From Thermoplasmatales archaeon (GTDB lineage Archaea > Thermoplasmatota > E2 > DHVEG-1): a stretch of 64,000 nucleotides of DNA. Below are positions 10,884-64,000 of the stretch, in pieces. How positions within the stretch are numbered: the first letter of the stretch is position 1; the number at the start of each line of letters is the position of its first letter. The notes below the pieces were generated by a model that saw only the letters and a program-made list of their open reading frames with translations, had not been told where the DNA came from and searched no databases. Position numbers and translations under genes: made by a program. The stretch spans positions 89,860 through 153,859 of the forward strand of contig CP070724.1 of NCBI GenBank assembly GCA_020350825.1, written 5' to 3'.

Positions 10884-12176
10884 ATGAAAGCTATTTTGCA
10901 GGTGGCTTTGGACCTTCTAAATGCACATCGTGCATTAAGTATTGCAAAAGATGCTATAGAAGGTGGAGCGGACTGGGTGGAAGCAGGTACACCTCTTATT
11001 AAAAGCGAGGGTATGGAAATTGTAAGAGAACTCAAACAAACATTTCCGGAAAAAACGCTTGTCGTTGATATGAAAACTATGGATACAGGTGCACTTGAAA
11101 CAGAAATGGCTGCAAAAGCAGGAGCAGATATAATTTGTATTCTTGCTGCATCAGACGATAGTACAATACTTGACGCATTGAAATCTGCTCGCAGCTATGG
11201 AGCAAAAATCATGGTTGATATTATCGGCGTTAAAGATAAGTTAAAACGAGCAAAAGAATTGGAAAAACTTGGTGTCGACTATTTATGCATGCATGTTGGA
11301 ATTGATGAACAAATGATAGGGAGAAAACCCATTGAAATTCTTTCATCTCTTGTCAAAACTACTGATATCCCAATTGCTGTTGCTGGAGGATTGAACAGCG
11401 AGACTGTTGCAGATGTTGTCAAAGCTGGTGCAAGCATTATAATAATTGGTGGGGCAATAACTAAAGCCAAAAATGTTGCAGAGGAAACAAAAAGGATAAA
11501 AAAAGCAATATCTGAGAAAAAATCTATTGATACCACACTTTTTAAAAAATATGATAAATCCCATCTGAAAGAAGCGTTTTCTATGGTTTCTACGCCAAAC
11601 ATCTCAGATGCGATGCATAAAAAAGGGGCAATGCAAGGGATTAGGCCAATCAAACTTGGTTTTCACATGGTTGGAAAGGCTCTTACTGTTAGGACAACAG
11701 ATGGAGACTGGGCAAAACCTATAGAAGCAATAGACATGGCAGATAAAGACCAGGTAATAGTAGTCGATGTAAATGGTGGAAAAACGGCTATTTGGGGAGA
11801 GCTTGCTACTTGGAGTGCAAAACTCAAAAATCTTGCTGGTGTTGTAATAGATGGTGCAGTTAGAGATTTAGATGATATCATAAAAATAGATTTTCCTATT
11901 TTCTGTAGGTATATCTCGTCTAATGCGGGAGAACCAAAAGGTTTTGGAGAAATTGGTGCAGAAATAAAATGTGGAAATCAAACTGTACAAACTGGAGATT
12001 GGATAATTGGTGATGATTCTGGAATAGTTGTAGTGCCACAAGAGATATCTCAGGAAATCGCTAATCGAGCATTAGATGTAAAAGAACATGAGAACCGTAT
12101 TCGTGAAGAGATAAAAAATGGCGGCTCGTTGGGTAGTGTCACCAAACTAAAGAAATGGGAGAAAATAGTAGGATGA
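10884..12176 (+). CDS. Bifunctional 3-hexulose-6-phosphate synthase / RraA-family (aldolase-like) fusion protein
   Basis: N-terminal half LQVALDLL..VEAGTPLIKSEG..VVDMKTMDTG..VAGGL matches the HPS / OMP-decarboxylase fold. C-terminal half ISDAMHKKG..VIVVDVNGGKTAIWGELATWSA..GVVIDGAVRD..GDWIIGDDSGIVVVP matches RraA/DlpA. Confidence 0.85.
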   Translation: MKAILQVALDLLNAHRALSIAKDAIEGGADWVEAGTPLIKSEGMEIVRELKQTFPEKTLVVDMKTMDTGALETEMAAKAGADIICILAASDDSTILDALKSARSYGAKIMVDIIGVKDKLKRAKELEKLGVDYLCMHVGIDEQMIGRKPIEILSSLVKTTDIPIAVAGGLNSETVADVVKAGASIIIIGGAITKAKNVAEETKRIKKAISEKKSIDTTLFKKYDKSHLKEAFSMVSTPNISDAMHKKGAMQGIRPIKLGFHMVGKALTVRTTDGDWAKPIEAIDMADKDQVIVVDVNGGKTAIWGELATWSAKLKNLAGVVIDGAVRDLDDIIKIDFPIFCRYISSNAGEPKGFGEIGAEIKCGNQTVQTGDWIIGDDSGIVVVPQEISQEIANRALDVKEHENRIREEIKNGGSLGSVTKLKKWEKIVG

Positions 12177-45939: not shown

Positions 45940-46311
45940 GCTGGGTGTAGGTGGACGGTTGACAGCGATTTATATCGCTGAGGAAAGTCCTCTCTCACTC
46001 TGAATCAGGATACCGTGCAAGCGGTTAAGGCGGGAGTCTTAGCAGAGGCGCAGAAACGACACAGCTCTTGGAATATGCTATGATTCATTTGATGATGAGT
46101 TCTCCTTGGGATTTGGTGAAACGGCCAATCTGCTCCTGGAGCAAGCCCAAATATCGGGATCAGTTATTCAGACTGCTCGAAGGTGGGGCGCATAGACGAA
46201 TACCGTTAGAACAGAAAGAGGCTCTCGTCGGGTCAGCAGACTGCTGCTTGGCTTGACAATGGGGTCACCTCTGATGTTGTAACAGAAAGAGGCTTACTAC
46301 CTTCACCCAGC
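45940..46311 (+). ncRNA. rnpB: RNase P RNA, archaeal type A
   Basis: P1 helix GCTGGGTG (45940-45947) pairs perfectly with CACCCAGC (46304-46311). P3 hairpin CAGCGATTTATATCGCTG, then CR-I GAGGAAAGTCC. CR-V ACAGAAAGAGGCTTAC near the 3-prime end supplies the other P4 strand. G+C much higher than the surroundings. Confidence 0.9.
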
Positions 46312-49840: not shown

Positions 49841-52174
49841 TTAGAAGAACTTCCACACAGTCATCTCCGAAGTAGCATTGTTACCGATATTGTCGTAAGC
49901 AACAGCTTTAATTCTATATCTTAAAGGAATCAATGCCCTCCACCTGTAACTATAGGGTTCAGTGAAATCTTCATCTTTAAGTTTATTATTAATATAGAAC
50001 TCTACTTTTTCAATCCCCTCATCAGATATAGCCTCCACCGTAATATCAATATACCCTACTATTATTGTATTTCTAGGCAAAGAAAAGAGTGGTTTATTTC
50101 GGAAGTAGAATCTTCTCTCTATAGGTTTAATTATAGATACATCTAAATCTGCAGGAATTGTGGTAAAACACCAGACCGAACCCTCAGTTGACGCACCATA
50201 GTGATCCCAAGCAACAATCTGCCAATAATACATCATATTACCTAATAATTCACCAGGGTCATAACTTGTATCTGACTGATTACTCGTAACCTGTGGAGGA
50301 GAACTACTAGTTCCAAAATACACATCATACGTAACTGGATCACCATCAGGATCACCACTAGTCCACCTTAACTTAATATTATTACTTACATTAGTCGCAC
50401 CATCTTCAGGGGTAGGCTCATAAGGCTTATGTGGTGGTTTATTTCCAATTCTGACAATGTTTCTCTTAGTGTCATTTTCAGAGTTGTTGCTATGCACACG
50501 TAAAGTTACTAGGTAATATCCTGCTTCCTCGAATGTATGGTTAGTATATGGACTTGTAAAGTTTACATCAAATTCTTCATCGTTGTCCCAGTCCCATTCA
50601 TAAAGAGTAATATATCCATCATAATCATAACTATCTGAAGCATTGAAAAGAATTAGCTCTCCTGGATCTGGAGGTATTGGTGTCCAGTTGAATTCAGCAA
50701 TTGGAGGAAAATCTCTATCCCACACCTCCATTAAAGGATAATTATCTTCGGCATTAATTAATGTATATGGTGTGTCGCCAATACCATCGCTACCTGGTAT
50801 ATTCTGATTAGGGCCTGAAAAATTATCCACCCCTGTATAATCAGACCAAAAGTTACCACCAGAGGGATACCCATCATCCCAATAATTAAATAAATCCCCA
50901 TTAGAAGCCTGCCCATTTTCATCTCCGTTATAAATGAAATTATTATGAAAAACCCTGTTGAGATTTCCACCACATAAACATGCTTCTAAAGCAACGCCTC
51001 GTTCAACATTTGACATGATATTATTTGAGAATATATGATTTTTCGAAGACATAATCATAAAAATCCCAATATTATTGCTACAGATATTGTTCTCCCAAAT
51101 CATGTTTAAAAATCCCCCACCGTCATGTGAAAAATAAATACCAAATCCTGAATTATCGTTTATCGTATTATTTTGTATAACGTTATAACCACCACCCCCA
51201 AAGCAATCTTCCTCCCCAAACCTCACACCATAATGGTTTTCAGTAATAACACATTGATTAATAATACTGTCTAACACACCATTGAACAATATTCCGACAT
51301 TGTTGTTCGAGATGGTGCTATCCGTGAGAAGACAATTATGAGTATTCCATAACTCGATACCAACATCCGTGTTAGATATTTCTTGGTTCTGTATGGTAAT
51401 ATTACTGCAGTTTATGAGTATTACTTGCCCTTCGTCAACATCTATGATAGTATCTGATTTATTTTCTAAACAGACAAGAGGTTTATCATTGACTGTATTG
51501 TTTATAACAGTATTTTGATATGAATAATAGATCTTAAGACCATCGTTGAAAAAAGAATTGTTTAAAACAAAGTTGTTGCTGGAATAACCAAGGACTAGGC
51601 CATACATAACATTTGAAGTAATGGTATTGCCCGTGATTCTGTTACCGTTAGAAGAAGTTAGCCATATACCATTCCATTTATTCGAGCTGATATTATTATC
51701 CTTTATGGTATTGTTATTACTATTACTAGGCCAATCACCTATATCTATACCAACCCAATTATTCAAGATGTTGTTGTCTGCAATCGTGGTAAAATCAGAT
51801 TTTATATCAATTCCTAACCTATAATTGCCACTGTTTCTAATTGTAAAACTACTGATGTTCACCCAATCAGCAGTAATATAAACAACATCTCCAGTATTGC
51901 TACCATCAATAATTGTGGTATTCCTATCTTCTCCAATAAGACTTATCGATTTGTTGATTATAATGGACTCATAATACGTGCCACTTGGAATATATATCGT
52001 ATCACCAGATGATGCATTATCTATCAAATCCTGAATATAACCATTAGAATTAAGAGACGGAAAAGATGTCTTCTCTACAATAATAGTTCCAGTTGAAGGA
52101 ATAACACTCGCACTAACGAATAAGAGTATAACGGCAACTACTACTCCTTCCTTGATGAGGTTATTTCTTTCCAT
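49841..52174 (-). CDS. Large secreted protein: right-handed parallel beta-helix (NosD/PbH1-like) plus PKD plus Fn3-like plus Ig-like domains
   Basis: Signal anchor, about 15 repeats of the N.I..N..GI.L type, PKD-like FNASDSYDYDGYITLYEWDWDND..YLVTLRV, then the module DPDGDPVTYDVYFGT..YYWQIVAWD. Confidence 0.8.
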   Translation of the reverse strand: MERNNLIKEGVVVAVILLFVSASVIPSTGTIIVEKTSFPSLNSNGYIQDLIDNASSGDTIYIPSGTYYESIIINKSISLIGEDRNTTIIDGSNTGDVVYITADWVNISSFTIRNSGNYRLGIDIKSDFTTIADNNILNNWVGIDIGDWPSNSNNNTIKDNNISSNKWNGIWLTSSNGNRITGNTITSNVMYGLVLGYSSNNFVLNNSFFNDGLKIYYSYQNTVINNTVNDKPLVCLENKSDTIIDVDEGQVILINCSNITIQNQEISNTDVGIELWNTHNCLLTDSTISNNNVGILFNGVLDSIINQCVITENHYGVRFGEEDCFGGGGYNVIQNNTINDNSGFGIYFSHDGGGFLNMIWENNICSNNIGIFMIMSSKNHIFSNNIMSNVERGVALEACLCGGNLNRVFHNNFIYNGDENGQASNGDLFNYWDDGYPSGGNFWSDYTGVDNFSGPNQNIPGSDGIGDTPYTLINAEDNYPLMEVWDRDFPPIAEFNWTPIPPDPGELILFNASDSYDYDGYITLYEWDWDNDEEFDVNFTSPYTNHTFEEAGYYLVTLRVHSNNSENDTKRNIVRIGNKPPHKPYEPTPEDGATNVSNNIKLRWTSGDPDGDPVTYDVYFGTSSSPPQVTSNQSDTSYDPGELLGNMMYYWQIVAWDHYGASTEGSVWCFTTIPADLDVSIIKPIERRFYFRNKPLFSLPRNTIIVGYIDITVEAISDEGIEKVEFYINNKLKDEDFTEPYSYRWRALIPLRYRIKAVAYDNIGNNATSEMTVWKFF

Positions 52175-53310: not shown

Positions 53311-54555
53311 ATGAAGAATAAATTAAATGCATTTTTGTTAGTGTTATGTCTATGTTTTGTTAGTGTTGGGATGGCAGGTGCGTATGACTATACTTATATC
53401 TCTGATGAGAAGAATCATTTTCCTAGAATGGTAGATTCTAGTAATGATTACGGTATTCAGTGGGAGAAGAGTTATGGTTCTAATCCATGGAATGATGCTA
53501 GGTATGAGGGTCCCCAACCTATTGGGGATTGTGATAATGATGGTGACAATGAATTACTCATTGGAGGGCGAGATGCCGTTTTGAGAGTTATGGAATGGAA
53601 TGAAGAGAAGCAAACATATGAAGAAACTCATTTGTTGCATTGCCCTTTTTACCCAGTTCGACGACTTGATGCTGATGGTTTTGCGATTGGTGATTTAACA
53701 GGTGATGGGAAAAATGAGATTGCTGTTTCTTGGTACGTTACCGTTCATAAATGGATTAGAGGAAAATATAGAATTATTGGGTGGAATCCTTGGATAGAAT
53801 GGAGTGGTGGTGGTAGTCCAGATTGTTATATCGGGGATTGCGATAATGATGGAAAGAATGAAATAGTTATGAGCTGTCGGGATTGGTCAAGGTCTATTCC
53901 TGAAATTGTTGTCTTTAAATGGAATGGATGGCGAATTGTAAAAGTTGCAGAGTGGGATGATCCTGGCATAAATGGGGAAGTTTTCATGGCAGGAATGGGA
54001 GATACTGATGAAGATGGAGAAAACGAAATCGTCCTTGGTTCTGGTGATAAAGTTGTTGTTCTTAATTGGAATAAGGAGAGTAAGGAGTTTGAGCCAACTA
54101 TTGTAAGTGATGATCCAGCTTCAGGTTGGGAAAATCATCCGTTTGCCTGTATCGTCAAAGATAGTGATATGGATGGAAAAAATGAGATTAATGTTGGATA
54201 CTGGGCCCCCAAGATCAAGATTTTCGAATGGAACGGCACCGGATACGAGATTAAATTTGAAAAAGAATGGCCTGGTGAAGAAGGATTAATTGAAGCCCTA
54301 GATGTTGGTGATGTTGATGATGATGGCATTGCAGAGGTATGTGCAGGAACAGATGTGATACATATATTGCAATGGAATAATTCCACATATGTTGAAGAGG
54401 CAGTTATTGATGAAACATTTGGATTATTGGCTGTTGTCTGTGTTGGGGATTGTGATAACGACGGGAAAAATGAAATTCATGCTGGATCGGTTGGAGTATA
54501 TCCTGGTCAAGATTTTATGTCTTGGGTTTTCAAGTACGGATGGGAATCTAAGTAA
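53311..54555 (+). CDS. Secreted FG-GAP/VCBS-type seven-bladed beta-propeller protein
   Basis: Signal peptide LLVLCLCFVSVGMAGA. Seven repeats of the Ca-binding loop GDCDNDGDNE / GDLTGDGKNE / GDCDNDGKNE / GDTDEDGENE / KDSDMDGKNE / GDVDDDGIAE / GDCDNDGKNE. Confidence 0.8.
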   Translation: MKNKLNAFLLVLCLCFVSVGMAGAYDYTYISDEKNHFPRMVDSSNDYGIQWEKSYGSNPWNDARYEGPQPIGDCDNDGDNELLIGGRDAVLRVMEWNEEKQTYEETHLLHCPFYPVRRLDADGFAIGDLTGDGKNEIAVSWYVTVHKWIRGKYRIIGWNPWIEWSGGGSPDCYIGDCDNDGKNEIVMSCRDWSRSIPEIVVFKWNGWRIVKVAEWDDPGINGEVFMAGMGDTDEDGENEIVLGSGDKVVVLNWNKESKEFEPTIVSDDPASGWENHPFACIVKDSDMDGKNEINVGYWAPKIKIFEWNGTGYEIKFEKEWPGEEGLIEALDVGDVDDDGIAEVCAGTDVIHILQWNNSTYVEEAVIDETFGLLAVVCVGDCDNDGKNEIHAGSVGVYPGQDFMSWVFKYGWESK

Positions 54556-54676
54556 TTGGATATTAAACTCTACAACTACAATTTTTTTAATCCATTTTTA
54601 TCTTCCTCGAAAATCATGTTTGGATATTTAACTTGCAGAAACTATTTATTTTGAAACTGGTTTTTGTTAGTGGGAG

Positions 54677-54952
54677 TTGAGAAATACGCCTAAAACTGTT
54701 GTTAAAAAGGATGGAAGAAAAGAACCTTTCGTAAAAGAAAAAATTGTGGTTAGTGCTGTAAAAACTGGTGCTCCGGTAAAGGTGGCACGTAGTATTGCTG
54801 ATAAGATTGAGAAACACCCCAAAGATGAGCTTAAAACCAGTGAGATCAAAAAAAGCGTCTTGGATGAACTAACATTACATAATCCTGATTTACCTAAACG
54901 CTGGCTCAGTTACGATAAAAGTGTTAAAAGGTTGTATAAACATATGTATTAA
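54677..54952 (+). CDS. Stand-alone ATP-cone domain protein
   Basis: VVKKDGRKEPFVKEKIVVSAVKTG..ARSIADKIE..LKTSEIKKSVLDEL fits the ATP-cone pattern. TTG start uncertain. Confidence 0.55.
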   Translation: MRNTPKTVVKKDGRKEPFVKEKIVVSAVKTGAPVKVARSIADKIEKHPKDELKTSEIKKSVLDELTLHNPDLPKRWLSYDKSVKRLYKHMY

Positions 54953-54976
54953 ATGTAAAGCAAGAAAAATAAGCTA

Positions 54977-56458
54977 TTATGATTTGAGGCGTTTTATACG
55001 GTTGCCCATAGCGTCATAGGTAGCATATTTATAGAGTTCGCCAAGGGTGGGATAATTAAAACAGGTGTCAATAAAAAGATTGCTGCTTGCGTCTATTATA
55101 AGGGCACTGACACCAATGTGGATTAATTCGGATGCGATCTCGCCGATGACATGGACACCTAGTAGTTTCATGGGGCGACTGAGGTCTTTATTGAATTTGA
55201 AGATTAATTTCAAAAAACCATCGGAGTCACCGATAATCATACCTCGTGCATTCTGGTTATAGGCAGCTTTGCCCACCGCATAATCAATCTTTTCCTCCCG
55301 ACATTCTTCCTCGGTTTTGCCAGCCATAGAGCACTCAGGGATTGTGTAAATACCAATGGGCAAAATGGGTGCCACATGCTTCTTGTAGGGTTCTAAGTTA
55401 AAGGCTTTGATCATGGCGAAGCGAGCCTGTTCCATGGAAGTCGAGGCTAGAGCAGGTCTGCCAATGACATCACCAGCAGCATAGATACCTGACACAGGTT
55501 TTTTTGTCTCTGGATGTATAACCTGGTAGTTTTGATCTACCGCTAATAAACCGTGTTTGCCAGGTGTGATCCCAGCGACCTCGAGATTCAATTCCCTAGT
55601 GTTGCTAGTTCGTCCTGTCGCGAGCATTACCGCCTCGTACTTGCTGACTTTTCCCGAACCCAGTTTTATTTGTAGCCCGTTAGCCATCACAGTACAAGCC
55701 TCTACGCTATCGGGCTTCAGCAGTTTAATTCCCATCTTTGACATGCTGTTCTCGAGTGCAAATGATATATCGCGATCAAGAAAAGGTAGCAGGATCTCCT
55801 TGTTGTGAATTAAGGACACATCAACACCCAATGCAGCGAAGGTGCAGGCATATTCACAGCCGATGACACCACCACCCACTACTACCATATTCTTTGGCAC
55901 TGGACTTTTGATCTGCAAGATAGAATCCGAGTCGTAGATACGTGGATCTTTAGGGATGTTGTCGGGACGCCGTGGATTCGAACCCGTTGCAATCAAGATA
56001 ATATCGCCCTTAAGGAACTTAGGTGGTTTGTCGCGTGCCTCGATCTTGATTGTTCGTTTATCCACAAACGAGCCCATACCCTTGAAGATGTCCACGTTAT
56101 GGACAAGCATGTTATTCATGACACGTGTACGCTCAGCATTTTTCACTACTCGCTCGTGGTGTAGAAAGTCCCTAGCTGTGGCCTGACGTTTGAGCGAAAG
56201 ATCCACGCCGTGGAGACGACGTGCACGTATCCCTGAGAGTGTTAGCGACGTTTCTCGTAGGGTTTTGCTTGGGATCGTAGTACCAGCTGCTGCACCGCCT
56301 AAATAGGGGTCTCGTTCCACCATGGCGACATTTTTACCGAAATAGGCAGCCTGTGCAGCGCCTTTCTCACCTGCAGGGCCTGATCCAAGAACGATCAGAT
56401 CATATTTGAGTAAGGATCCTCTCTTAGCTATACATACTCCCCCTAAATAATAATCTTC
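54977..56458 (-). CDS. SthA/UdhA-like soluble pyridine nucleotide transhydrogenase (FAD/NAD(P) disulfide-reductase fold without the redox Cys pair)
   Basis: YDLIVLGSGPAGEKGAAQAAYFGKNVAMVERDPYLGGAAAGTTIPSKTLRE (no CxxxxC), second Rossmann VVVGGGVIGCEYA, C-terminal dimerisation domain. The coordinates span the whole open frame; the first canonical start (ATG at 56323) would delete the GxGxxG motif (see findings). Confidence 0.75.
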   Translation of the reverse strand, partial: EDYYLGGVCIAKRGSLLKYDLIVLGSGPAGEKGAAQAAYFGKNVAMVERDPYLGGAAAGTTIPSKTLRETSLTLSGIRARRLHGVDLSLKRQATARDFLHHERVVKNAERTRVMNNMLVHNVDIFKGMGSFVDKRTIKIEARDKPPKFLKGDIILIATGSNPRRPDNIPKDPRIYDSDSILQIKSPVPKNMVVVGGGVIGCEYACTFAALGVDVSLIHNKEILLPFLDRDISFALENSMSKMGIKLLKPDSVEACTVMANGLQIKLGSGKVSKYEAVMLATGRTSNTRELNLEVAGITPGKHGLLAVDQNYQVIHPETKKPVSGIYAAGDVIGRPALASTSMEQARFAMIKAFNLEPYKKHVAPILPIGIYTIPECSMAGKTEEECREEKIDYAVGKAAYNQNARGMIIGDSDGFLKLIFKFNKDLSRPMKLLGVHVIGEIASELIHIGVSALIIDASSNLFIDTCFNYPTLGELYKYATYDAMGNRIKRLKS

Positions 56459-57216
56459 TCACCCTCAGAGGCGATGCTGATATTAAGTTTTAATTCGTGG
56501 GATACTTCCTTCACTTCTTTCTTGATTTCTTTTTCCAGTTTCGGGCTTAAATGAAATAAGATTACCTGTGGAAAACATCCTTTGACTCGATGAAAATCTA
56601 TCAACTCTTTTTTTAACATTTTGGGACATAGGTGTGCTGAATTGATTGCTCTATTTTCTAATCTATTGGGAAAAGTTACTTCCACTATAATAAGCTGAGG
56701 TGATATGTGTTCCCAAAGAGCTGAAAGACCTGGACCAGTATCACCAGAGTAAAACACCTTCTTTCCATCTTTGGAAGTGATTTCAAAGCCTAATGCGTTA
56801 ATGGTATGTCTTACCGGCAGGGGTAAAACCTGATAACCTTCAATATCTACTGGAACAAAGGGTTCTAAAGCAACAAACTTGAGTGATGGTTTTTCTAAGA
56901 AAAAGGGAATCTTTTTTGTGAATTTAGGATAAATTACACCATCAACAAGATGAGAGGAAAGGATTTTAAGTGTCTGTGGAGCAGCAAAAATCTCAGTAGT
57001 ATGATTAGGATTATTGAAGGCAAAAGCTGGAATCCCTCTAATATGGTCGTAATGTCCATGAGATAGCAAGATTGCCTTTATCTTTTCTTGCTCTGAAAAT
57101 GAAAGTTCCGAAGCTAGGCTCCCTGCATCCACAGCTAAGATATCATCAATCAGAATGGAGATCAACCTAGTATCTCTTGATTCTGCATTATGTGCACCTA
57201 AAAACTTTACGATCAG
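56443..57216 (-). CDS. MBL-fold hydrolase resembling class II 3',5'-cyclic-nucleotide phosphodiesterases
   Basis: VKFLGAHNAESRDTRLISILIDDILAVDAGS, SHGHYDH (HxHxDH), YSGDTGP, AHLCPKMLKKEL, LFHLSPK. The coordinates span the whole open frame; the track start is a TTG at 57165. Confidence 0.6.
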   Translation of the reverse strand: MIVKFLGAHNAESRDTRLISILIDDILAVDAGSLASELSFSEQEKIKAILLSHGHYDHIRGIPAFAFNNPNHTTEIFAAPQTLKILSSHLVDGVIYPKFTKKIPFFLEKPSLKFVALEPFVPVDIEGYQVLPLPVRHTINALGFEITSKDGKKVFYSGDTGPGLSALWEHISPQLIIVEVTFPNRLENRAINSAHLCPKMLKKELIDFHRVKGCFPQVILFHLSPKLEKEIKKEVKEVSHELKLNISIASEGEKIII

Positions 57217-57327
57217 TTAATCAACTCCAATATATTGTATGGCAACGTGGTTTTCTTAAAAACCTTTATGTTTATAAATCCTGCTTTTGACTATCTATAG
57301 TGATAGTAATCAATCTGTTATTTGGGC

Positions 57328-58905
57328 TTAGATGCGGCGAAGTTTTCTAGAGAGCCCCTTTGCCATGTTTTGCATCACTATCTTGCCAAGATGACTATTT
57401 TTGTTCATCAGATTTTCTAGTTCAAACCGATCTATCACAACGAGCTTAGAACCTACATCTGTTACTAAATCAGCGACTCTAGGCAAATCCTCAATGATTG
57501 CCATCTCGCCAAAAATCTCTCCTTGACTAATAGAGCCAATTTTAGATCTTTTTTTTCCAGTTCTCTTAGCAAAAACTGATGCTTTACCTTCTGCAAGAAC
57601 AAAAATTTCGCTCCCACATTCACCTTCACTGCATATAGTTTTTCCTGCAGGGTAGGAAACCATTTTACATATTTGAGCCAGTTGGGATAACTCCCCATCG
57701 GAAAGACCCTGGAAAATGTCGGATTGTCGTGTTACTTCGGTGATTTCTAGACCAATTTTCTTACATTCCAAGTCCTTCATTGCCAGCTTAAACATATCTT
57801 TGGCCATTGATGTAAGCTTTATGTCTCTCACATCTGGAGGTATAAGCAACTTGGCCATACGTACCACATCAAGTCGTTCCACTCCTCGGAATACCATTGA
57901 GGGGCAATAGGCCACTGGAACAAATCCTAATCTATCTAAGGTCTTTTGCATTTGAGAAGAATATGCGCTTACATCCATTTCAATATACTGAGCCTCATAA
58001 TTCTCTGGGGCCAGCTTTACCAGTGTTGATAACAAGAACCCTTTCACTTCATCGTCGAACTCAATAAGTTCGAGCACCTTAACCTTCTTATCAATAACGT
58101 CCACGGTGAAGCCGATCGCGCCCAAGATTACGCCCTTATCTTTGGCTACCAAATAGTGAGCTTGATTCGTAGCGATTTTAAAGAATCCATAACTCAAACT
58201 CAGATTCCCAAATACCTCAGGATTCTTGATCCGTCCTCGTTCAATTCGGAGAAGAGGTGAAACTCCAGCTGATTGGAGTTCCATAATATCAAAAGTCTTC
58301 TCTGTGGGATAACCATCTACTTCATCTTCAACTATAAGATCCACTGGTAAGCCAAGATTTTGCATGCTTTTAGCTGCCATTGGGTAGATACAAGCAATAA
58401 CTCGAGGATTATTCCTTCTCAGGGAGAGAGCAGGTTCAAAGAGTCTGGTGACAAAAACCACGTTCTCTCTGGCTGTCGCAAGTTGATACTTATTTGGTTC
58501 AAATCCTGTTGGAAAAAATCCACACCGTTCAGAGATCTTTTGGGCCCCTGAATGAACAGCCCTACACTCAGCAAAACCAAATTGGATAATTTCTGAGGAA
58601 GCATCTATTAAACCATTGAAGATCTCAGTGCCGGTACCTTTTCGACCGCATTTTGGATCTACTACCAAACGTCCAAACTCACCTATTAAATCTGAGAATC
58701 CGCCCGCCGTAAGAAAAACTGAGCCCGTACCAACAATTCGGTTTTTCTCCTTAGCAACTAAAATTATGTTATCATCAGAATAGATACTTTTAGTAAGCCA
58801 CATGGGATCGTAAAATTTCTTGAATGGATAATCTGGACCATAGGTTTTTACAAAAAGATTCATAATTAGTTGCGCATCATTTTCGTCTGCTTGTGTAATT
58901 TCCAC
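57328..58905 (-). CDS. Tandem GNAT acetyltransferase with a C-terminal cyclic-nucleotide-binding (CAP-type) domain
   Basis: GNAT motif A RLVVDPKCGRKGTGTEIF in the first domain and a degenerate second GNAT-like domain. C-terminal FQGLSDGELSQL..GEIFGEMAIIEDLPRVADLV (FGE..PR.A phosphate-binding cassette). GTG start. Confidence 0.8.
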   Translation of the reverse strand: MEITQADENDAQLIMNLFVKTYGPDYPFKKFYDPMWLTKSIYSDDNIILVAKEKNRIVGTGSVFLTAGGFSDLIGEFGRLVVDPKCGRKGTGTEIFNGLIDASSEIIQFGFAECRAVHSGAQKISERCGFFPTGFEPNKYQLATARENVVFVTRLFEPALSLRRNNPRVIACIYPMAAKSMQNLGLPVDLIVEDEVDGYPTEKTFDIMELQSAGVSPLLRIERGRIKNPEVFGNLSLSYGFFKIATNQAHYLVAKDKGVILGAIGFTVDVIDKKVKVLELIEFDDEVKGFLLSTLVKLAPENYEAQYIEMDVSAYSSQMQKTLDRLGFVPVAYCPSMVFRGVERLDVVRMAKLLIPPDVRDIKLTSMAKDMFKLAMKDLECKKIGLEITEVTRQSDIFQGLSDGELSQLAQICKMVSYPAGKTICSEGECGSEIFVLAEGKASVFAKRTGKKRSKIGSISQGEIFGEMAIIEDLPRVADLVTDVGSKLVVIDRFELENLMNKNSHLGKIVMQNMAKGLSRKLRRI

Positions 58906-59135
58906 GATGTGGCCTCCCTTTTCACTAACTAGAAACTTATATAATCCAAAAATAATTACCTCTTTTATAACTTTCTCTATTTTAATGGATAAAATGTTCT
59001 TAAAATCATATTTTCTCTACGATACATCAATATTTAATCCGTTTTTACTTATATAGGGACTAAAATCTATATGTTTTAAATAGGTAAACTGAAGATTCTG
59101 TTTCTGTGTGTAAATAAAGAAATATGGAGAAAGAT

Positions 59136-59426
59136 TTATTCTAGATACTCTAAATCCACAAGTAATTCAAGTTTCCTTGGGGGAGCTTCAAGTCCTCTTT
59201 TTGAAAAAAACGTGATAGGTTCTTCTCTAATCTTTTTGGTAAATTTAAGAAATGATTTAAACTCCTTAAATTTCAATAGAGCAGCATAGTTCCATTCACT
59301 TGACGGTTTTAATATATCCATCAGCTCCACATTATCAAATTTTTTTGATGCTTGCATCATAGTTTTTTTTGCTTCCTCAAACTCTTCTTTGCTACCACTA
59401 AAATTAAAATAGACTATTGCGTACAT
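59136..59426 (-). CDS. Hypothetical protein (96 aa)
   Basis: ORF only, in an AT-rich spacer within the cAMP block. Confidence 0.35.
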   Translation of the reverse strand: MYAIVYFNFSGSKEEFEEAKKTMMQASKKFDNVELMDILKPSSEWNYAALLKFKEFKSFLKFTKKIREEPITFFSKRGLEAPPRKLELLVDLEYLE

Positions 59427-59684
59427 TTTATCGTTTTTGCATCTTTTTTACATATAAAAATATTTCCTTATTAGAAGCATGTTGTTTTATTCCGGAATTA
59501 TTCTTTTCGAGAAAATTAAGTAACCGATTTATTATACATAAAGAAGTTGAATCAGAAGGAAATCTAACAAGACTAGTCGATCTGAATATCATCCAAGAAC
59601 TAGATCAAGACATTCAAAGAAAGAGCTAATACTTCCTCCCCAAATCTTTTTATATAAAAATATAATTGTACGGAAGGGGATATT

Positions 59685-60566
59685 TTGGCAAAAAAAATTG
59701 ACAATAAGGAAATCAAGTCCAATAAAAAGGTAAAATCCAAAAGAAAAATATTTCTCCTGATAATCCCCGTAATAATTATTGTTTGTATCATAGGATTTAT
59801 ATGGTTCACACTTACCACTGATGTAGTCAATGCCCAACTTATTGTTGAATCTGGGACTGTCCAGGTAAAACACGTAGGAGGATCATGGATCTCTGCCGAA
59901 AATAGCATGCTTCTCTCCCAGTCTGATTCAGTGAAGACAGGAGATAATACATCTGCGTCAATAATCCTTTTTGAAAGCAGCATAATCAGGCTTGACAACA
60001 ACACAGAGGTGACGATTCAAGAACTCATCCAACTGGATGAAGAAACCAGTGTTAAGATAAAACAGGATGCAGGACGGACATGGAACACAATTTCCAAGAT
60101 GAGTGGTATAGACAACTACGATGTCCAGACTCCAACAACAGTTGCCAGTGTTCGTGGAACCGCTTTTGTTGTAATTGTCCAATCAAATGGGACAACCTAT
60201 TATGGAGTGGCCCATGGAATCCTAAATGTTTCTTATGTGAGCAATGGTACAATTCAAGGCGTTGTAGATTTGGATGAGAATGAATCTGTAATAGCTTATG
60301 TTGATATGGTGAATATATCTCTTGAAATAAAACCTTTTGTTATGGATGATTGGGTCTTAGAAAATCTTCTTGAAGATGAGCAGTTTAGAATTGATTTAAA
60401 GGAGGAACTTTACAGTCGAATTGAACCATATATACCTGAATTAAAAGAGCAGTATGGTTTAACTGACCAAGAATTAGAGGTTCTTATCGATGGTTACATT
60501 ATGGGATACTTCGACCTTCCACCTGATACACCAGAATGGGCAAGAGAATTATTTGAATTGTCTTGA
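59685..60566 (+). CDS. FecR-domain protein with an N-terminal membrane anchor
   Basis: TM helix IFLLIIPVIIIVCIIGFIWF. GTVQVKHVGGSW..GDNTSASIILFESSIIRLDNNTEV..VASVRGTAFVV fits the FecR fold pattern. TTG start. Confidence 0.7.
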   Translation: MAKKIDNKEIKSNKKVKSKRKIFLLIIPVIIIVCIIGFIWFTLTTDVVNAQLIVESGTVQVKHVGGSWISAENSMLLSQSDSVKTGDNTSASIILFESSIIRLDNNTEVTIQELIQLDEETSVKIKQDAGRTWNTISKMSGIDNYDVQTPTTVASVRGTAFVVIVQSNGTTYYGVAHGILNVSYVSNGTIQGVVDLDENESVIAYVDMVNISLEIKPFVMDDWVLENLLEDEQFRIDLKEELYSRIEPYIPELKEQYGLTDQELEVLIDGYIMGYFDLPPDTPEWARELFELS

Positions 60567-60580
60567 GCCTGTGGTTTATA

Positions 60581-62533
60581 ATGCCTACTATACTCAAAAA
60601 CAAACTCACAAAAACACTATTTATCTCACTATTTATCTCAGCCATAGTGACAATGCTTATGACTGCAGGTTTCTTAGATACATGGGAATCCAAGATCTCG
60701 GATGCTTTTTATGCTCCGGGTAATACACTTGATGAGATCATAATAGTAGCAATAGATGACGAGAGCCTCCAGGAACTTGGTAGGTGGCCCTGGCCTAGGG
60801 ACCACTTTGCTAGGGCTATAAATTATCTAAACCAGAGCTCAGTAATTGGAATAGATATCTCTTTTTTTGAGCCCGCAGAAGGAGATTCTGAATTAGCCGA
60901 TTCTTTCAAGGCAGTTAATGTCGTCTTGGCCATGGAATATACATCCTTCTCCTATAAAAATGGGGAGCTGTATGGGGAGAGCTTGCTTAAACCAACCACA
61001 ACTCTGGGCACCTTAGGTGTGGATTTTGAGACAGGCTTTGTTAACCTTTACACAGACTCAGATGGTGTGACGAGATCTTTTAATCCTCATATATCCGGTA
61101 TCGAAGACTACGACCACATCTCTATGGTTGTTGTTGGTGAATACCTTGGAATCACTCCCGACCTTGGAAGCTCCAGAATGCTGATAAACTTCTTTGCTCC
61201 CCCAGGAGAATATGAGTACATATCATTTTCTGACGTCTACAACAATATTATAGACCCTTCATACTTCAAGGGCAAAATTGTTCTTATTGGTGCCACTGCT
61301 GCAGATCTCCATGACGATGTTATAACTCCTATATCCAACCAAGCTATGCCTGGTGTTGAGGTAAATGCCAATCTTGTACAGTCTATACTCACGAGGGACT
61401 TCCTATATTATCAGGACGATTTTTCTGCTATAGGAGTTATATTCCTTTTTGCCCTGCTCGCAGGCTTTTTACTATTCAGATTTAGGATACATATAGCTAC
61501 TGTCCTTTTGGCAGTGCTTGCTATAGCCTACATCTTCTTTTCCATCTATACTTTTGATTCAGGAATCATCATGAATATACTCTACCCGCTACTTTCCCTA
61601 ACGTTGGTCTACATCACTCTTGTTGTGATATACTATCTGACAGAGGAAAGGAGTAGGAAGTGGATAACTTCGATCTTTGGAAAGTATGTTTCACCTGTGG
61701 TAATAGACAACCTTATAAAAAATCCTGATTGGATAAAACTGGGAGGGGAGAAGAGGACTATAACCGTTTTCTTCTCTGACATAAGAGGATTTACCTCTAT
61801 ATCAGAGAGACTTGATCCTGAGGAGCTAGTCCATCTCCTAAACGAGTACTTAACCGAGATGACCTCGATAATAATAAAGGATCAGGGGCTTGTTGACAAG
61901 TATATGGGTGACGCTATCATGGCCTTTTGGGGAGCACCTCTAGAGCAGCCCAATCACACAGAGTTAGCATGCTCAAGTAGTCTGGAGATGATAGATAAGC
62001 TCGAAGAGCTCAAGAAGAAATGGAAAAAAGAGGGAATACCATCTTTTGATATTGGAATAGGTCTAAACAGTGGTGATGCTATTGTGGGCAACATGGGCTC
62101 CTTAAAAAGGTTTGACTACACTGCAATTGGTGACAATGTCAACCTTGCCTCCCGGATGGAAGGCCTTAATAAGATCTATGGTACTAATATAATAATAACC
62201 GAAAATACCCACAAGGTTGTCAAAGATAAATTCGAGACTAGAAAGCTTGATGCTGTTAAAGTATTGGGGAAGAAGAAACCAATCCTAATCTATGAACTCC
62301 TCTCACAAAAGGACAGATTCAGCAAAAAGCAGGGAGATTTTGTCAGGCTCTATGAGGCTGGCCTTGAACTTTATTTTAAGAAGAATTGGAAGCCAGCTAT
62401 CAAATCCTTCCAGGATGCTGTTAAGCTCATGGAGGATAATGCCTCCCATATATTTATAGCACGCTGTCAGGAATTCTTAAAGAATCCGCCCTCTAGAGAT
62501 TGGGATGGCGTATGGGAGATGGAAACCAAATAA
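60581..62533 (+). CDS. CHASE2 sensor domain-containing class III adenylate cyclase
   Basis: CHASE2 signature IIIVAIDDESLQELGRWPWPRDHFARAINYL, three TM helices, then cyclase core ITVFFSDIRGFTSISE, VDKYMGDAIMAFWGAP and DYTAIGDNVNLASRMEG. The track start (TTG at 60563) overlaps the FecR stop by 4 nt; the ATG at 60581 is the alternative. Confidence 0.9.
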   Translation: MPTILKNKLTKTLFISLFISAIVTMLMTAGFLDTWESKISDAFYAPGNTLDEIIIVAIDDESLQELGRWPWPRDHFARAINYLNQSSVIGIDISFFEPAEGDSELADSFKAVNVVLAMEYTSFSYKNGELYGESLLKPTTTLGTLGVDFETGFVNLYTDSDGVTRSFNPHISGIEDYDHISMVVVGEYLGITPDLGSSRMLINFFAPPGEYEYISFSDVYNNIIDPSYFKGKIVLIGATAADLHDDVITPISNQAMPGVEVNANLVQSILTRDFLYYQDDFSAIGVIFLFALLAGFLLFRFRIHIATVLLAVLAIAYIFFSIYTFDSGIIMNILYPLLSLTLVYITLVVIYYLTEERSRKWITSIFGKYVSPVVIDNLIKNPDWIKLGGEKRTITVFFSDIRGFTSISERLDPEELVHLLNEYLTEMTSIIIKDQGLVDKYMGDAIMAFWGAPLEQPNHTELACSSSLEMIDKLEELKKKWKKEGIPSFDIGIGLNSGDAIVGNMGSLKRFDYTAIGDNVNLASRMEGLNKIYGTNIIITENTHKVVKDKFETRKLDAVKVLGKKKPILIYELLSQKDRFSKKQGDFVRLYEAGLELYFKKNWKPAIKSFQDAVKLMEDNASHIFIARCQEFLKNPPSRDWDGVWEMETK

Positions 62534-62555
62534 TACTGCAATCATCAAAGGATAT

Positions 62556-64000
62556 TTATCTTCTCTTTTTTCTAAGGATGACCAATATTAGTACTATCAT
62601 TGCTAATAAAGATATAGCCTCAAATCCAGGTGTCTTCTCCTCCTCATATATCTTCAGCCATTTCTGGATAACAAAATCAACATAAGGTGATAACTCTGTT
62701 ATTAGATTATATGCATAATCCCACTTGCCATCTCCATCACTATCTATAAGATAAGTATTGTTTTCCCTTCCAACGATTGTCTGATTCCCTGTTGCATCAT
62801 TATAAAATACATCCCAAGTATTGTTACTGTTAAGATCAATTAGTTCTCCTATGATTATATCATCGATTGGATGTACATCTATTAAAACTGTATAAGTTGT
62901 TATCCCCGAAATAGCATTGTTTATATCCTCTGCATATACAGTTATAAGGTATTCATTATAGGTTGACCAACTATGGTTTTGAGTAGTTGTAGTACCATTT
63001 GTTAAGTATTCTGTGGTTGTATTGGTGTCGTCACCCCAGTCAAAAACGTACCTAATAGTATCGTTATCTAAATCTGTTGAAACTACATCATAATCAAGTG
63101 ATGTTTGTTTATGTCCAAATGTTGGACCATCCAATGTTGGTTGTGTAGGCGGATTGTTTGGTATGGTAATATATACTGTGGCTGTATCAGTATGTGTACT
63201 TCCTTCGTTATCATATACCCTTAGCGTAACTGTATATTCCCCTATTGCTTCATAGGTATGGTTTGGATTTACCCCCAAATCTTCATGCCATGTATCTTCA
63301 TTGAAAAACTTCCAATCATACCGGACAATAGACTCACCATTTTCATCGTTATCTGTACTATTTGTTCCATCGAACTCGATTTCTTCATCTACAAATCCAT
63401 AGTATGGTCCACCAGCATCAGCAGTTGGATCATTTTGTGATGACGACGGGGGTGGTAGACTTTTAGATGAAAAACTCCATACAGGACTTTCATTAGATGC
63501 ACTATGATTATCCCATGCTATAATCTTCCAGTAATAGATTCTTCCGAGATCTAATGTTCCAGGATCATAAGTGTTATTTGATTGATTACTGGAGACTTTT
63601 GGTGGAGATGAATCAGTTCCAAAGTAAACATCGTAGGTGAGAGTGTCACCTGGATCCAGATCGCTGCAATTCCAACTAAGGTCAGTATTGACCGCTATTT
63701 CTGAGGCGCCATTATCTGGTACAGGATTACTAGGGGAATTTGGAGGATCATTCACATCACCCACCGTTATACTAACCGTAGCAACATTAGACGTAGCACC
63801 ATCATCATCATCCACCTCATAAGTAAAACTATCAGAGCCAAAATAATTCAAATCAGGCGTATAAGTAACCACACCAGTTGTCGCATTCACACTCGTAACA
63901 CCATCAGACACACCACTAACAATAACAACAGACGTAGGATCAACCGAACCATCAACATCATAATCATTCGCCGTGACATCGATATCAACCGCTGTATCCT
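62556..64000 (-). CDS. PGF-CTERM-anchored surface protein with cadherin/VCBS-like, Fn3-like and PKD domains (5-prime end outside the window)
   Basis: C-terminus TPGFEAISLLAMIVLILVILRKKRR is a PGF-CTERM-type sorting signal. The frame stays open from 63911 to the window edge (..DIDVTANDYDVDGSVDPTSVVIVSGVSDGV..). PKD-like YDWKFFNEDTWH..YTVTLRVYDNEG. Confidence 0.8.
   Translation of the reverse strand, partial: DTAVDIDVTANDYDVDGSVDPTSVVIVSGVSDGVTSVNATTGVVTYTPDLNYFGSDSFTYEVDDDDGATSNVATVSITVGDVNDPPNSPSNPVPDNGASEIAVNTDLSWNCSDLDPGDTLTYDVYFGTDSSPPKVSSNQSNNTYDPGTLDLGRIYYWKIIAWDNHSASNESPVWSFSSKSLPPPSSSQNDPTADAGGPYYGFVDEEIEFDGTNSTDNDENGESIVRYDWKFFNEDTWHEDLGVNPNHTYEAIGEYTVTLRVYDNEGSTHTDTATVYITIPNNPPTQPTLDGPTFGHKQTSLDYDVVSTDLDNDTIRYVFDWGDDTNTTTEYLTNGTTTTQNHSWSTYNEYLITVYAEDINNAISGITTYTVLIDVHPIDDIIIGELIDLNSNNTWDVFYNDATGNQTIVGRENNTYLIDSDGDGKWDYAYNLITELSPYVDFVIQKWLKIYEEEKTPGFEAISLLAMIVLILVILRKKRR

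What the first reader, a model, noticed from the sequence alone, without database searches (positions are those of the whole stretch)
57328..58905. GNAT-GNAT-cNMP domain order is the reverse of the known cAMP-regulated lysine acetyltransferases
The mycobacterial cAMP-dependent protein acetyltransferases (Rv0998 / MSMEG_5458 type) carry the cNMP-binding domain N-terminal to a single GNAT domain. Here a catalytic-looking GNAT (RLVVDPKCGRKGTGTEIF) is followed by a second, degenerate GNAT-like domain, and the cNMP domain sits at the C-terminus. This suggests an independent fusion that reached the same regulatory logic, with a possibly pseudo-enzymatic middle domain acting as scaffold or substrate-binding module.
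Basis: partly seen in the sequence, partly recalled or inferred. Interest (0 to 1): 0.65.

Follow-up and report, generated by a model that had tools for sequence, protein, structure and literature searches.

The report
Archaeal tandem-GNAT acetyltransferase with C-terminal cAMP sensor
This archaeal gene encodes an acetyltransferase-type enzyme with a cyclic-AMP sensor at its tail end, the reverse of the only studied example, and it sits beside a cAMP-making enzyme and a probable cAMP-degrading enzyme, so the three may form a complete and testable cAMP signalling unit in archaea, where no such proteins have been characterised.

Summary
Window 57328..58905 (minus strand) encodes a 525-aa protein with three domains. 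The first is a canonical GNAT (aa 1-160). The second has a GNAT fold but no acetyl-CoA pyrophosphate loop (aa ~165-355). [quoted passage not shown]

"Degenerate" is misleading for the middle domain, because it is the most conserved part of the family.

The architecture is not a one-off. It occurs full-length in 222 species-representative genomes, spanning one archaeal clade and more than ten bacterial phyla. The two-GNAT core also exists without the CNB domain. This and the lack of specific similarity to mycobacterial Pat support an independent fusion.

In the archaeal clade the gene lies in a conserved cluster: a FecR-like gene, a CHASE2 adenylate-type cyclase, a small ORF, this gene, an MBL-fold class-II-phosphodiesterase-like gene and an SthA-like gene. 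I read this as a cAMP writer, eraser and reader set.

A more distant bacterial sister clade has His instead of the cassette Arg and is tightly linked to M20 deacylase genes. That hints at small-molecule or peptide substrates rather than protein lysines.

I found no characterised member in the literature. Verdict: new variant of a known kind. The acceptor substrate is unresolved.

The parts
57328..58905 (-). Whole gene: 525-aa GNAT / GNAT-like / CNB protein (GTG start, TAA stop at 57328-57330)
   Evidence: more than 100 full-length homologues at 47-98% identity
58426..58905 (-). Domain 1 (aa 1-160): canonical GNAT. Motif A loop PKCGRKGT lies between beta4 (aa 74-82) and alpha3 (aa 91-103); relatives carry R-x-x-G-x-G/A at this position
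   Evidence: Pfam Acetyltransf_1/7/10 above cutoff; model; Foldseek single-GNAT hits with target-normalised TM 0.7-0.8; motif alignment
57841..58413 (-). Domain 2 (aa ~165-355): diverged GNAT fold without the pyrophosphate loop. It is the most conserved part of the family (ELIEFDDxVKGxLL, Q320, F328, Y333, P335, R344, D346)
   Evidence: no sequence hit in the PDB
58165..58266 (-). aa 214-247: highly conserved segment LLRIERGR...E.FGNLSLSYGFF, predicted with low confidence (pLDDT below 50). Relaxed forms of it are also present in members that lack the CNB domain
57754..57810 (-). aa 366-384: helical linker between d2 and the CNB domain
57331..57738 (-). Domain 3 (aa ~390-525): cyclic-nucleotide-binding domain, including a conserved C-terminal helix (LGxxVxxNxAxGLSxKLRR)
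   Evidence: Pfam cNMP_binding E 2e-16; PDB sequence hits to PKG, PKA-R and CRP; Foldseek probability 1.0, rmsd ~2 A to CRP/GlxR CNB domains
57469..57513 (-). Phosphate-binding cassette FGEMAIIEDLPRVAD (aa 465-479), with G466, E467, R476 and A478
   Evidence: Invariant in A1; Arg present in the window protein and in 35 of the 38 loci L001-L038 plus L044 and L048
56443..57216 (-). Downstream gene: 257-aa MBL-fold hydrolase, class-II cAMP-phosphodiesterase-like (HGHYDH motif). It starts at CTG
   Evidence: Pfam Lactamase_B_2 and PDEase_II (25.6 bits against 23.7); NCBIfam weak match to cyclic-nucleotide-degrading phosphodiesterase; start codon; syntenic in 10 archaeal loci
54977..56431 (-). Next gene downstream: SthA-like flavoprotein (Si-specific NAD(P)+ transhydrogenase-like). 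It starts at ATA, 11 nt after the MBL stop
   Evidence: NCBIfam PRK05249 426.7 bits (cutoff 465); start codon; syntenic in 8 archaeal loci
59136..59426 (-). Upstream small ORF (96 aa) with no family match, conserved at this position in all 11 archaeal loci
59685..60566 (+). Divergently transcribed FecR-domain protein with an N-terminal hydrophobic segment. It overlaps the cyclase gene by 4 nt
   Evidence: Pfam FecR E 1.3e-9; synteny in 10 loci
60563..62533 (+). CHASE2-sensor class III nucleotide cyclase of adenylate type (Lys in DKYMGD, Thr in DYTAIG, as in P. aeruginosa CyaB)
   Evidence: Pfam CHASE2 3e-50 and Guanylate_cyc 1e-27; PDB 3r5g CyaB E 8e-40 with alignment; synteny

Best explanation
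The gene encodes an acyl-CoA-dependent N-acyltransferase gated by cyclic AMP, and it acts as the output of a local cAMP signalling module.

Shown here:
- The protein has an N-terminal GNAT with a CoA-type motif A.
- It has a second, strongly conserved GNAT-fold domain that lacks the CoA pyrophosphate loop.
- It has a C-terminal CNB domain with the canonical ribose- and phosphate-contacting residues (Gly-Glu ... Arg-x-Ala).
- In the archaeal clade the gene is syntenic with a CHASE2 class III cyclase that shares CyaB's residues at the positions I recall as adenine-specifying, and with an MBL-fold class-II-phosphodiesterase-like hydrolase.

Inferred mechanism:
1. The membrane CHASE2 cyclase, with its FecR-like partner, turns an external cue into cAMP.
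2. cAMP binds the C-terminal CNB domain. This moves its conserved C-terminal helix and the helical linker to d2.
3. That movement switches the tandem-GNAT core on, by analogy with MtPat, PKA and Epac. An off switch is not excluded.
4. Domain 1 transfers the acyl group. The acceptor binds in the cleft formed with domain 2, including the invariant LLRIERGR/FGNLSL segment, as in other tandem GNATs where one domain is catalytic and the other shapes the acceptor site.
5. The MBL enzyme hydrolyses cAMP and ends the signal.

The acceptor is not identified. I lean towards a defined amine-bearing metabolite, amino acid, or peptide or protein N-terminus rather than broad protein-lysine acetylation. A protein target such as the co-transcribed SthA-like enzyme remains possible.
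For: - Domain calls above curated thresholds.
- Cassette residues G466, E467, R476 and A478 invariant in 25 relatives, and Arg kept throughout the archaeal and nearest bacterial clade.
- CNB fold matches CRP, GlxR and PKA-R at rmsd ~2 A.
- d1 motif A loop present, and canonical R-x-x-G-x-G in relatives.
- d2 has GNAT topology without the loop, and tandem-GNAT Foldseek hits span both domains.
- Conserved synteny cyclase<-FecR | orf96->GNAT-CNB->MBL->SthA in 8-11 archaeal species genomes at 65-93% protein identity.
- The cyclase matches CyaB (E 8e-40) and has the same Lys and Thr at the two positions.
- The MBL passes the Pfam PDEase_II threshold.
- This is the only CNB protein and the only cyclase in the 64-kb window, and they are neighbours.
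- The leaning towards a small-molecule or peptide acceptor rests on two things. First, M20 amidohydrolase/deacylase genes of two different subfamilies lie directly upstream in the sister clade. Second, the closest structural matches to d1 are SpeG, AAC(6'), RimI and phosphinothricin/ArsN acetyltransferases.
Against: - No biochemical data exist for any family member.
- The acceptor cannot be read from sequence.
- The M20 link belongs to the sister clade, whose CNB pocket differs (His for Arg), and it is absent from the archaeal clade, so carrying the substrate inference across is risky.
- pTM falls from 0.83 (core alone) to 0.70 (full length), so how the CNB domain packs on the core is uncertain, and the direction of regulation (on or off) is unknown.
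- The MBL protein's similarity to class II PDEs is weak (25.6 bits). It scores as well or better against RNase Z and PhnP models, all far below their curated cutoffs.
- The window protein's motif A has the Arg shifted by one position (G-R-K-G-T-G).
Confidence: 0.55

Rival explanations
1. It is a functional analogue of mycobacterial Pat: a cAMP-activated protein lysine acetyltransferase that modifies specific enzymes, for example the co-transcribed SthA-like flavoprotein or acyl-CoA synthetases elsewhere in the genome.
For: It has the same domain pair as MtPat/MsPat. The SthA-like gene is co-oriented 11 nt downstream of the MBL gene and is syntenic in 8 loci. The tandem-GNAT enzyme Eis acetylates proteins as well as small molecules (PMC8556138).
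Against: There is no specific similarity to Pat's GNAT. No AMP-forming acyl-CoA synthetase was found among the 20 large ORFs scanned. The sister clade pairs with M20 deacylases rather than with sirtuin or HDAC-type protein deacetylases. The SthA linkage is limited to the archaeal clade.
Confidence: 0.3
2. The C-terminal CNB-fold domain does not sense cAMP. It binds cGMP or another ligand, or serves only for oligomerisation, and the linkage to the cyclase is coincidental.
For: CNB-fold domains bind varied ligands (PMC2246266; PMC10959531, listed). In the sister clade the key Arg is His (PHSAT) in 40 of 42 aligned loci, and it is Tyr or Cys in three others, so the pocket is evolutionarily plastic. 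The residue after the Arg varies (V, S, T, A, N).
Against: The window protein and all ten full-length archaeal homologues keep the full canonical cassette. The neighbouring cyclase shares CyaB's Lys and Thr, unlike 2w01, which has Glu and Gly there. The synteny with the cyclase and the PDE-like gene holds across homologues down to ~65% identity.
Confidence: 0.12
3. The tandem-GNAT core is not an acyl-CoA transferase. It would be, for example, an aminoacyl-tRNA-dependent (Fem/L-F-transferase-like) or otherwise non-canonical enzyme, or the middle domain would be the catalytic one.
For: Some tandem GNAT folds use aminoacyl-tRNA donors (my own knowledge). d2 is more conserved than d1. d1 lacks the usual alpha4 Tyr (read from the sequence).
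Against: d1 carries the CoA-type R-x-x-G-x-G/A loop across the family and passes three Pfam acetyltransferase models. d2 has only a two-residue beta4-alpha3 loop.
Confidence: 0.05

Closest known systems
Mycobacterial cAMP-dependent protein acetyltransferase MtPat (Rv0998) / MsPat (MSMEG_5458), a 'type III' GNAT
   Same: A CNB domain and a GNAT in one polypeptide, and the presumed logic that cAMP controls acyl transfer. The CNB domains are homologous (the NCBIfam Pat model aligns to aa 396-482).
   Different: The order is reversed, with the CNB at the C-terminus. There are two GNAT-fold domains instead of one. The GNAT parts show no specific similarity (27.9 bits against a cutoff of 460; Pat not found with d1). 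The linker and lid elements differ. The taxonomic range is also different: one archaeal clade and many bacterial phyla, with only one actinobacterial locus (Acidimicrobiia) among the 80 listed.
Eis-type 'type V' tandem GNATs (M. tuberculosis Eis)
   Same: An active N-terminal GNAT, then a central GNAT fold that lacks CoA-binding features, then a C-terminal accessory domain (PMC8556138). Some family members give weak Acetyltransf_9/17 (Eis-type) Pfam hits.
   Different: The C-terminal domain is a CNB sensor rather than an SCP2-like fold. There is no significant sequence similarity. The C-terminus is not conserved as a free-carboxylate catalytic element, because many relatives have extensions beyond the C-terminal helix.
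Tandem GNAT of the clavulanic acid pathway (PDB 2wpw/2wpx) and PH putative acetyltransferase 3ddd
   Same: They are the only Foldseek hits that align across both N-terminal domains (~390-425 columns, probability 1.0).
   Different: Identity is 11-12%, TM 0.4-0.47 and rmsd ~12 A, so the arrangement of the two domains differs. Neither has a sensor domain.
PixB of Myxococcus xanthus (PilZ-PilZ-GNAT)
   Same: A GNAT fused to a nucleotide second-messenger receptor (PMC8316039).
   Different: The messenger is c-di-GMP, sensed by N-terminal PilZ domains. There is a single GNAT, and the sequences are unrelated.

Membership tests
GNAT superfamily (domain 1) | Match to curated GNAT profiles above threshold | tested here: met
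   Acetyltransf_1 35.1 bits (cutoff 20.7), Acetyltransf_7 31.3 (27), Acetyltransf_10 27.3 (23.6)
GNAT superfamily (domain 1) | GNAT fold with a beta4-alpha3 pyrophosphate-binding loop (Q/R-x-x-G-x-G/A) | tested here: met
   The model has an 8-residue loop, PKCGRKGT. Foldseek gives target-normalised TM 0.7-0.8 to many GNATs. Relatives have R-G-Q-G-I-G and similar; the window protein has G-R-K-G-T-G, with the Arg shifted by one.
GNAT superfamily (domain 2) | GNAT fold | tested here: met
   The model shows the GNAT strand and helix order for aa 249-353. Tandem-GNAT Foldseek hits span both domains. Only sub-threshold sequence signals were found.
GNAT superfamily (domain 2) | CoA pyrophosphate-binding loop | tested here: not met
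   The beta4-alpha3 connection is 2 residues (F-D-D-E-V-K-G) and has no R/Q-x-x-G-x-G/A.
Cyclic nucleotide-binding (CNB/cNMP_binding) domain | Profile match above threshold, and the CNB fold | tested here: met
   PF00027 60.2 bits (cutoff 27.5); Foldseek probability 1.0, rmsd 1.9-2.7 A to CRP, GlxR and other CNB domains
Cyclic nucleotide-binding (CNB/cNMP_binding) domain | Intact phosphate-binding cassette (G-E ... R-x-A) | tested here: met
   FGEMAIIEDLPRVAD; G466, E467, R476 and A478 are invariant in 25 relatives
Cyclic nucleotide-binding (CNB/cNMP_binding) domain | Actual binding of cAMP or cGMP | not testable with these tools
   Needs ITC, DSF or a co-crystal structure
Mycobacterial Pat (NCBIfam NF058543 ActPatMycb56) / 'type III' regulated GNAT | Full-length match to the Pat equivalog model | tested here: not met
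   27.9 bits against a cutoff of 460, and only the CNB part aligns
Mycobacterial Pat (NCBIfam NF058543 ActPatMycb56) / 'type III' regulated GNAT | Regulatory ligand-binding domain N-terminal to a single GNAT (definition in PMC8556138) | tested here: not met
   The CNB is C-terminal, and two GNAT folds precede it
Mycobacterial Pat (NCBIfam NF058543 ActPatMycb56) / 'type III' regulated GNAT | cAMP-stimulated protein lysine acetylation | not testable with these tools
   Needs an enzyme assay
Eis-type 'type V' tandem GNAT | An active N-terminal GNAT followed by a central GNAT that lacks CoA-binding features | tested here: met
   (competence inferred from motifs only)
Eis-type 'type V' tandem GNAT | C-terminal SCP2-like domain whose terminal carboxylate takes part in catalysis; Eis-family profiles | tested here: not met
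   The C-terminal domain is a CNB. No Eis profile scores above threshold. The C-terminus varies in length across the family.
Class III adenylate cyclase (neighbour, 60563..62533) | Cyclase catalytic-domain profile, plus Lys and Asp/Thr at the adenine-specifying positions | tested here: met
   Guanylate_cyc 97.4 bits. The alignment to CyaB (3r5g) shows a shared Lys (DKYMGD) and Thr (DYTAIG). The assignment of these positions rests on my own knowledge of class III cyclases.
Class II cAMP phosphodiesterase (neighbour, 56443..57216) | PDEase_II profile above threshold and an HxHxDH metal motif | tested here: inconclusive
   PF02112 scores 25.6 bits against a cutoff of 23.7, but only over aa 25-115, and HGHYDH is present. 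The NCBIfam cyclic-nucleotide PDE model scores 30.7 against 400, and RNase Z and PhnP models score similarly, also far below their cutoffs.

The most novel reading that the evidence does not exclude
The cluster at window 54977..62533 is a complete, self-contained cAMP module in an archaeon. A CHASE2 adenylate cyclase writes the signal, an MBL-fold phosphodiesterase erases it, and the tandem-GNAT-CNB acyltransferase reads it, so that the output is cAMP-gated acylation of a metabolite or protein. These would be the first candidate proteins for making, degrading and sensing 3',5'-cAMP in Archaea. The wider family would be a previously unrecognised class of C-terminally regulated tandem GNATs ('reverse type III / sensor-bearing type V'). 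It would have two ligand-pocket variants: R-type, and H-type linked to M20.
Probability: 0.4. Interest if true: 0.75.

Novelty: new variant of a known kind. Interest (0 to 1): 0.58.

Why it matters
There are three reasons.

1. All ligand-regulated GNATs characterised so far carry the sensor at the N-terminus (PMC8556138). This family couples a CNB sensor to the C-terminus of a tandem-GNAT core and is phylogenetically broad (222 species genomes). It therefore offers an independent test of how CNB domains transmit allostery to GNAT active sites.

2. [quoted passage not shown] This locus supplies one candidate for each role, side by side and conserved across an archaeal clade. All three can be expressed and assayed.

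3. The split between R-type members and H-type members paired with M20 genes suggests that the same scaffold has been retuned to another ligand and tied to a deacylase. That is a lead for finding the substrate.

Tried and rejected
- The whole-chain Foldseek search returned only CNB-domain hits, so I modelled aa 1-385 separately.
- Sequence searches of d1 and of a d2 profile against the PDB found nothing significant.
- Profile-profile comparison of d1 with d2 gave only a 25-column motif-B match. Internal duplication is therefore plausible but not demonstrable by sequence.
- I considered that the MBL and SthA genes were truncated or frameshifted. I rejected this because syntenic homologues place ATG, GTG or TTG exactly where the window has CTG and ATA.
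- I considered that the C-terminal KLRR tail acts as an Eis-like catalytic C-terminus or as a pseudo-substrate. This is not supported, because many relatives extend past it.
- I looked for a conserved partner in the R-type bacterial loci (L012-L038). None recurs.
- I looked for acyl-CoA synthetase targets in the window. None was found among 20 large ORFs.
- The sigma-70 promoter and terminator scan was uninformative for an archaeon and did not exceed the shuffled expectation.
- GC content across the cluster is only modestly raised and does not decide for or against horizontal transfer.
- Five literature searches found no paper describing a GNAT with a C-terminal CNB domain. Absence from this library is not proof of absence.
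Full report
**1. The observation**

The window carries an ORF at exactly 57328..58905 on the minus strand. It is 525 aa long and starts at GTG, with a GGGAGG ribosome-binding site 7 nt upstream. Pfam places Acetyltransf_1/7/10 at aa 14-133 and cNMP_binding at aa 416-503, all above their curated cutoffs. A sub-threshold Acetyltransf_18 hit lies at aa 295-341. The stated domain order is therefore real.

The contig is archaeal. It carries an archaeal RNase P RNA at 45943-46308, along with Topo VI A and B, Kae1, TruD and an archaeal-type PheRS beta subunit.

**2. Anatomy**

Two AlphaFold models were built from a 25-sequence alignment. The full-length model has pLDDT 80.5 and pTM 0.70. The model of aa 1-385 has pLDDT 81.3 and pTM 0.83.

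- Domain 1 (aa 1-160) is a canonical GNAT. It has an 8-residue beta4-alpha3 loop (PKCGRKGT). Relatives carry textbook R-x-x-G-x-G/A sequences at this position.
- Domain 2 (aa ~165-355) has the GNAT order of strands and helices, but its beta4-alpha3 connection is only two residues long, so it has no pyrophosphate-binding loop.
- Foldseek with the N-terminal model returns many single GNATs (SpeG, AAC(6'), RimI, PaiA, ArsN). The only hits that span both domains are tandem-GNAT proteins (2wpw/2wpx, 3ddd), at low TM, so the arrangement of the two domains differs.
- By sequence, d2 is an orphan. It has no PDB relative, only sub-threshold GNAT hits in Pfam, and only a motif-B match to d1.
- Despite this, d2 is the most conserved part of the protein. 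The conserved stretches include LLRIERGR...FGNLSL (aa 214-247), which is modelled with low confidence, and Q320/F328/Y333/P335/R344/D346.
- A helix (aa 366-384) links d2 to the CNB domain. The CNB domain matches the CNB domains of CRP, GlxR, PKA-R and PKG in sequence and in fold.
- Its phosphate-binding cassette, FGEMAIIEDLPRVAD, keeps Gly-Glu and Arg-x-Ala, and these residues are invariant in 25 relatives.

**3. The family**

The full-length architecture is widespread.
- More than 100 proteins share 47-98% identity over 100% of the length.
- A scan of one genome per species found 222 genomes that encode a relative. The 80 best fall into an archaeal clade whose records are labelled Thermoplasmatota or Thermoplasmatales, and into Planctomycetota, Myxococcota, Verrucomicrobiota, Nitrospirota, Armatimonadota, Gemmatimonadota, Acidobacteriota, Chloroflexota, Gammaproteobacteria, Melainabacteria and others. 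Some near-identical proteins are labelled Asgard.
- Searching with aa 1-385 alone finds 437 clusters at 50% identity. Domain mapping shows 36 full-length d1-d2-CNB representatives and 19 complete d1-d2 proteins of 373-422 aa without a CNB domain. There is also one 802-aa d1-d2-d1-d2 duplication.

So the tandem-GNAT core is a family in its own right, and the CNB domain is an added module. The NCBIfam model for mycobacterial Pat aligns only to the CNB part, at 27.9 bits against a cutoff of 460. Domain 1 finds no Pat structure by sequence. Together these results support an independent fusion.

**4. Genomic context**

In the eleven archaeal loci the neighbourhood is syntenic. It reads: CHASE2 cyclase and FecR-domain gene, transcribed divergently; then orf96, the GNAT-CNB gene, an MBL-fold gene and an SthA-like gene on the same strand.
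- The cyclase's best solved relative is P. aeruginosa CyaB (3r5g, E 8e-40). The two share Lys (DKYMGD) and Thr (DYTAIG) at the positions I recall as base-specifying in class III cyclases. The next hit, 2w01, has Glu and Gly at those positions. cAMP is therefore the likely product.
- The MBL protein passes the Pfam class-II cAMP-phosphodiesterase threshold and has HGHYDH. It is equally close to RNase Z and PhnP models, all far below their curated cutoffs, so its role as the eraser is plausible but not secure.
- These are the only cyclase and the only CNB protein in the 64 kb, and they are adjacent.

**5. A second clade with a different pocket and a different partner**

I compared the cassette with the neighbouring genes across the 80 loci, 78 of which could be aligned. 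The split is clean.
- Loci with the canonical Arg (all ten aligned archaeal loci and the nearer bacterial clade): 34 of 35 have no M20 gene nearby.
- Loci with His at that position ('PHSAT'; 36-39% identity to the window protein): 33 of 40 have an M20-family gene next to them. Three of the seven exceptions have less than 1 kb of upstream sequence.
- The M20 gene usually sits directly upstream on the same strand, and the two called ORFs usually abut or overlap (median -9 nt).
- Two different M20 subfamilies fill this slot. One is an M20D amidohydrolase, similar to N-acetyl-diaminobutyrate deacetylase and CpsA (TIGR01891, 376.7 bits against a cutoff of 153.75). The other is glutamate-carboxypeptidase-like.

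Recurrent pairing with deacylases and carboxypeptidases hints that the core acts on an amino acid or peptide-like amine. Carrying that inference over to the archaeal R-type protein remains an inference.

**6. Mechanism**

- Shown: the domain identities, the intact cassette, the missing CoA loop in d2, the synteny, and CyaB's Lys and Thr in the cyclase.
- Inferred: a CHASE2/FecR signal leads to cAMP. cAMP binds the CNB domain. The C-helix and linker move. Acyl transfer by d1 is activated, or possibly inhibited, onto an acceptor held between d1 and d2. The MBL enzyme ends the signal.
- The acceptor is unknown. I give about 55% to the overall cAMP-gated acyltransferase reading. Within it I lean towards a small-molecule or peptide acceptor and away from the Pat-like lysine-acetyltransferase variant (~30%).

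**7. Comparison with known systems**

The protein combines features of two classes in the scheme of the 2021 review (PMC8556138). Type III covers ligand-regulated GNATs, which always have an N-terminal sensor. [quoted passage not shown] This protein is a member of neither by their defining features. Five literature searches found no description of a GNAT with a C-terminal CNB domain. Database names for family members are generic, such as 'RimJ/RimL family', 'GNAT family N-acetyltransferase' and 'cyclic nucleotide-binding domain-containing protein'.

**8. Significance and verdict**

[quoted passage not shown] This cluster offers a candidate for each of those roles.

The finding is a new variant of a known kind: an uncharacterised but widespread family, found here in a notable archaeal context. 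Interest is 0.58.

Noticed in passing
window 57214-57216 and 56429-56431 (minus strand): Two consecutive genes appear to use near-cognate start codons. The MBL gene starts at CTG, directly after an in-frame TAA, with GGAG 9 nt upstream. The SthA-like gene starts at ATA, with GGGGGAG 6 nt upstream. Syntenic homologues have ATG, GTG or TTG at exactly these positions, and the closest relative, L001, shares CTG and ATA. A mechanical ORF list therefore truncates both genes.
   Followed up: yes
loci L039-L080 (for example L070:6762-7967 and L068:4851-6143): The sister clade of the family has His instead of the phosphate-binding Arg in the CNB cassette ('PHSAT'). In 33 of 40 loci it has an adjacent M20 metallohydrolase gene, drawn from two different M20 subfamilies. 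The canonical-Arg clade lacks an M20 gene in 34 of 35 loci.
   Followed up: yes
window 59136-59426 (minus strand): A 96-aa ORF with no Pfam or NCBIfam match is conserved immediately upstream of the GNAT-CNB gene in all 11 archaeal loci (60-99% identity). It could be a partner or a substrate.
   Followed up: partly
window 59685-60566 and 60563-62533 (plus strand): The FecR-domain gene overlaps the CHASE2-cyclase gene by 4 nt, which suggests translational coupling of a sensor pair. Both are syntenic in the archaeal clade.
   Followed up: partly
protein P0121 (802 aa): One family representative is a head-to-tail duplication of the whole tandem-GNAT core (d1-d2-d1-d2) with no CNB domain.
   Followed up: no
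window 45943-46308 (plus strand): Archaeal RNase P RNA (Rfam RF00373, 158.9 bits).
   Followed up: no
window 54000-62600: GC content across the cluster is about 0.38-0.48, against about 0.28-0.36 in much of the rest of the window. The SthA-like gene is highest (0.46-0.48). This is compatible with bacterial origin or with coding constraints, and it does not decide between them.
   Followed up: partly
loci L001-L011 and proteins P0040, P0085, P0111: Taxonomic labels for this archaeal clade disagree between records. Genome records say Thermoplasmatota or Thermoplasmatales, while some near-identical proteins are labelled Promethearchaeota or Hodarchaeota (Asgard). One 'Thermoplasmata' chromosome is 5.16 Mb.
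   Followed up: no
window 49841-52174, 53311-54555 and 62556-63911: Several large predicted surface or secreted proteins flank the cluster. They carry NosD/beta-helix plus PKD, FG-GAP repeat, and PKD/Big_9/cadherin-like domains.
   Followed up: no
window 10884-12176 (plus strand): A single ORF fuses an OMPdecase/HUMPS-family domain to an RraA-like aldolase domain.
   Followed up: no
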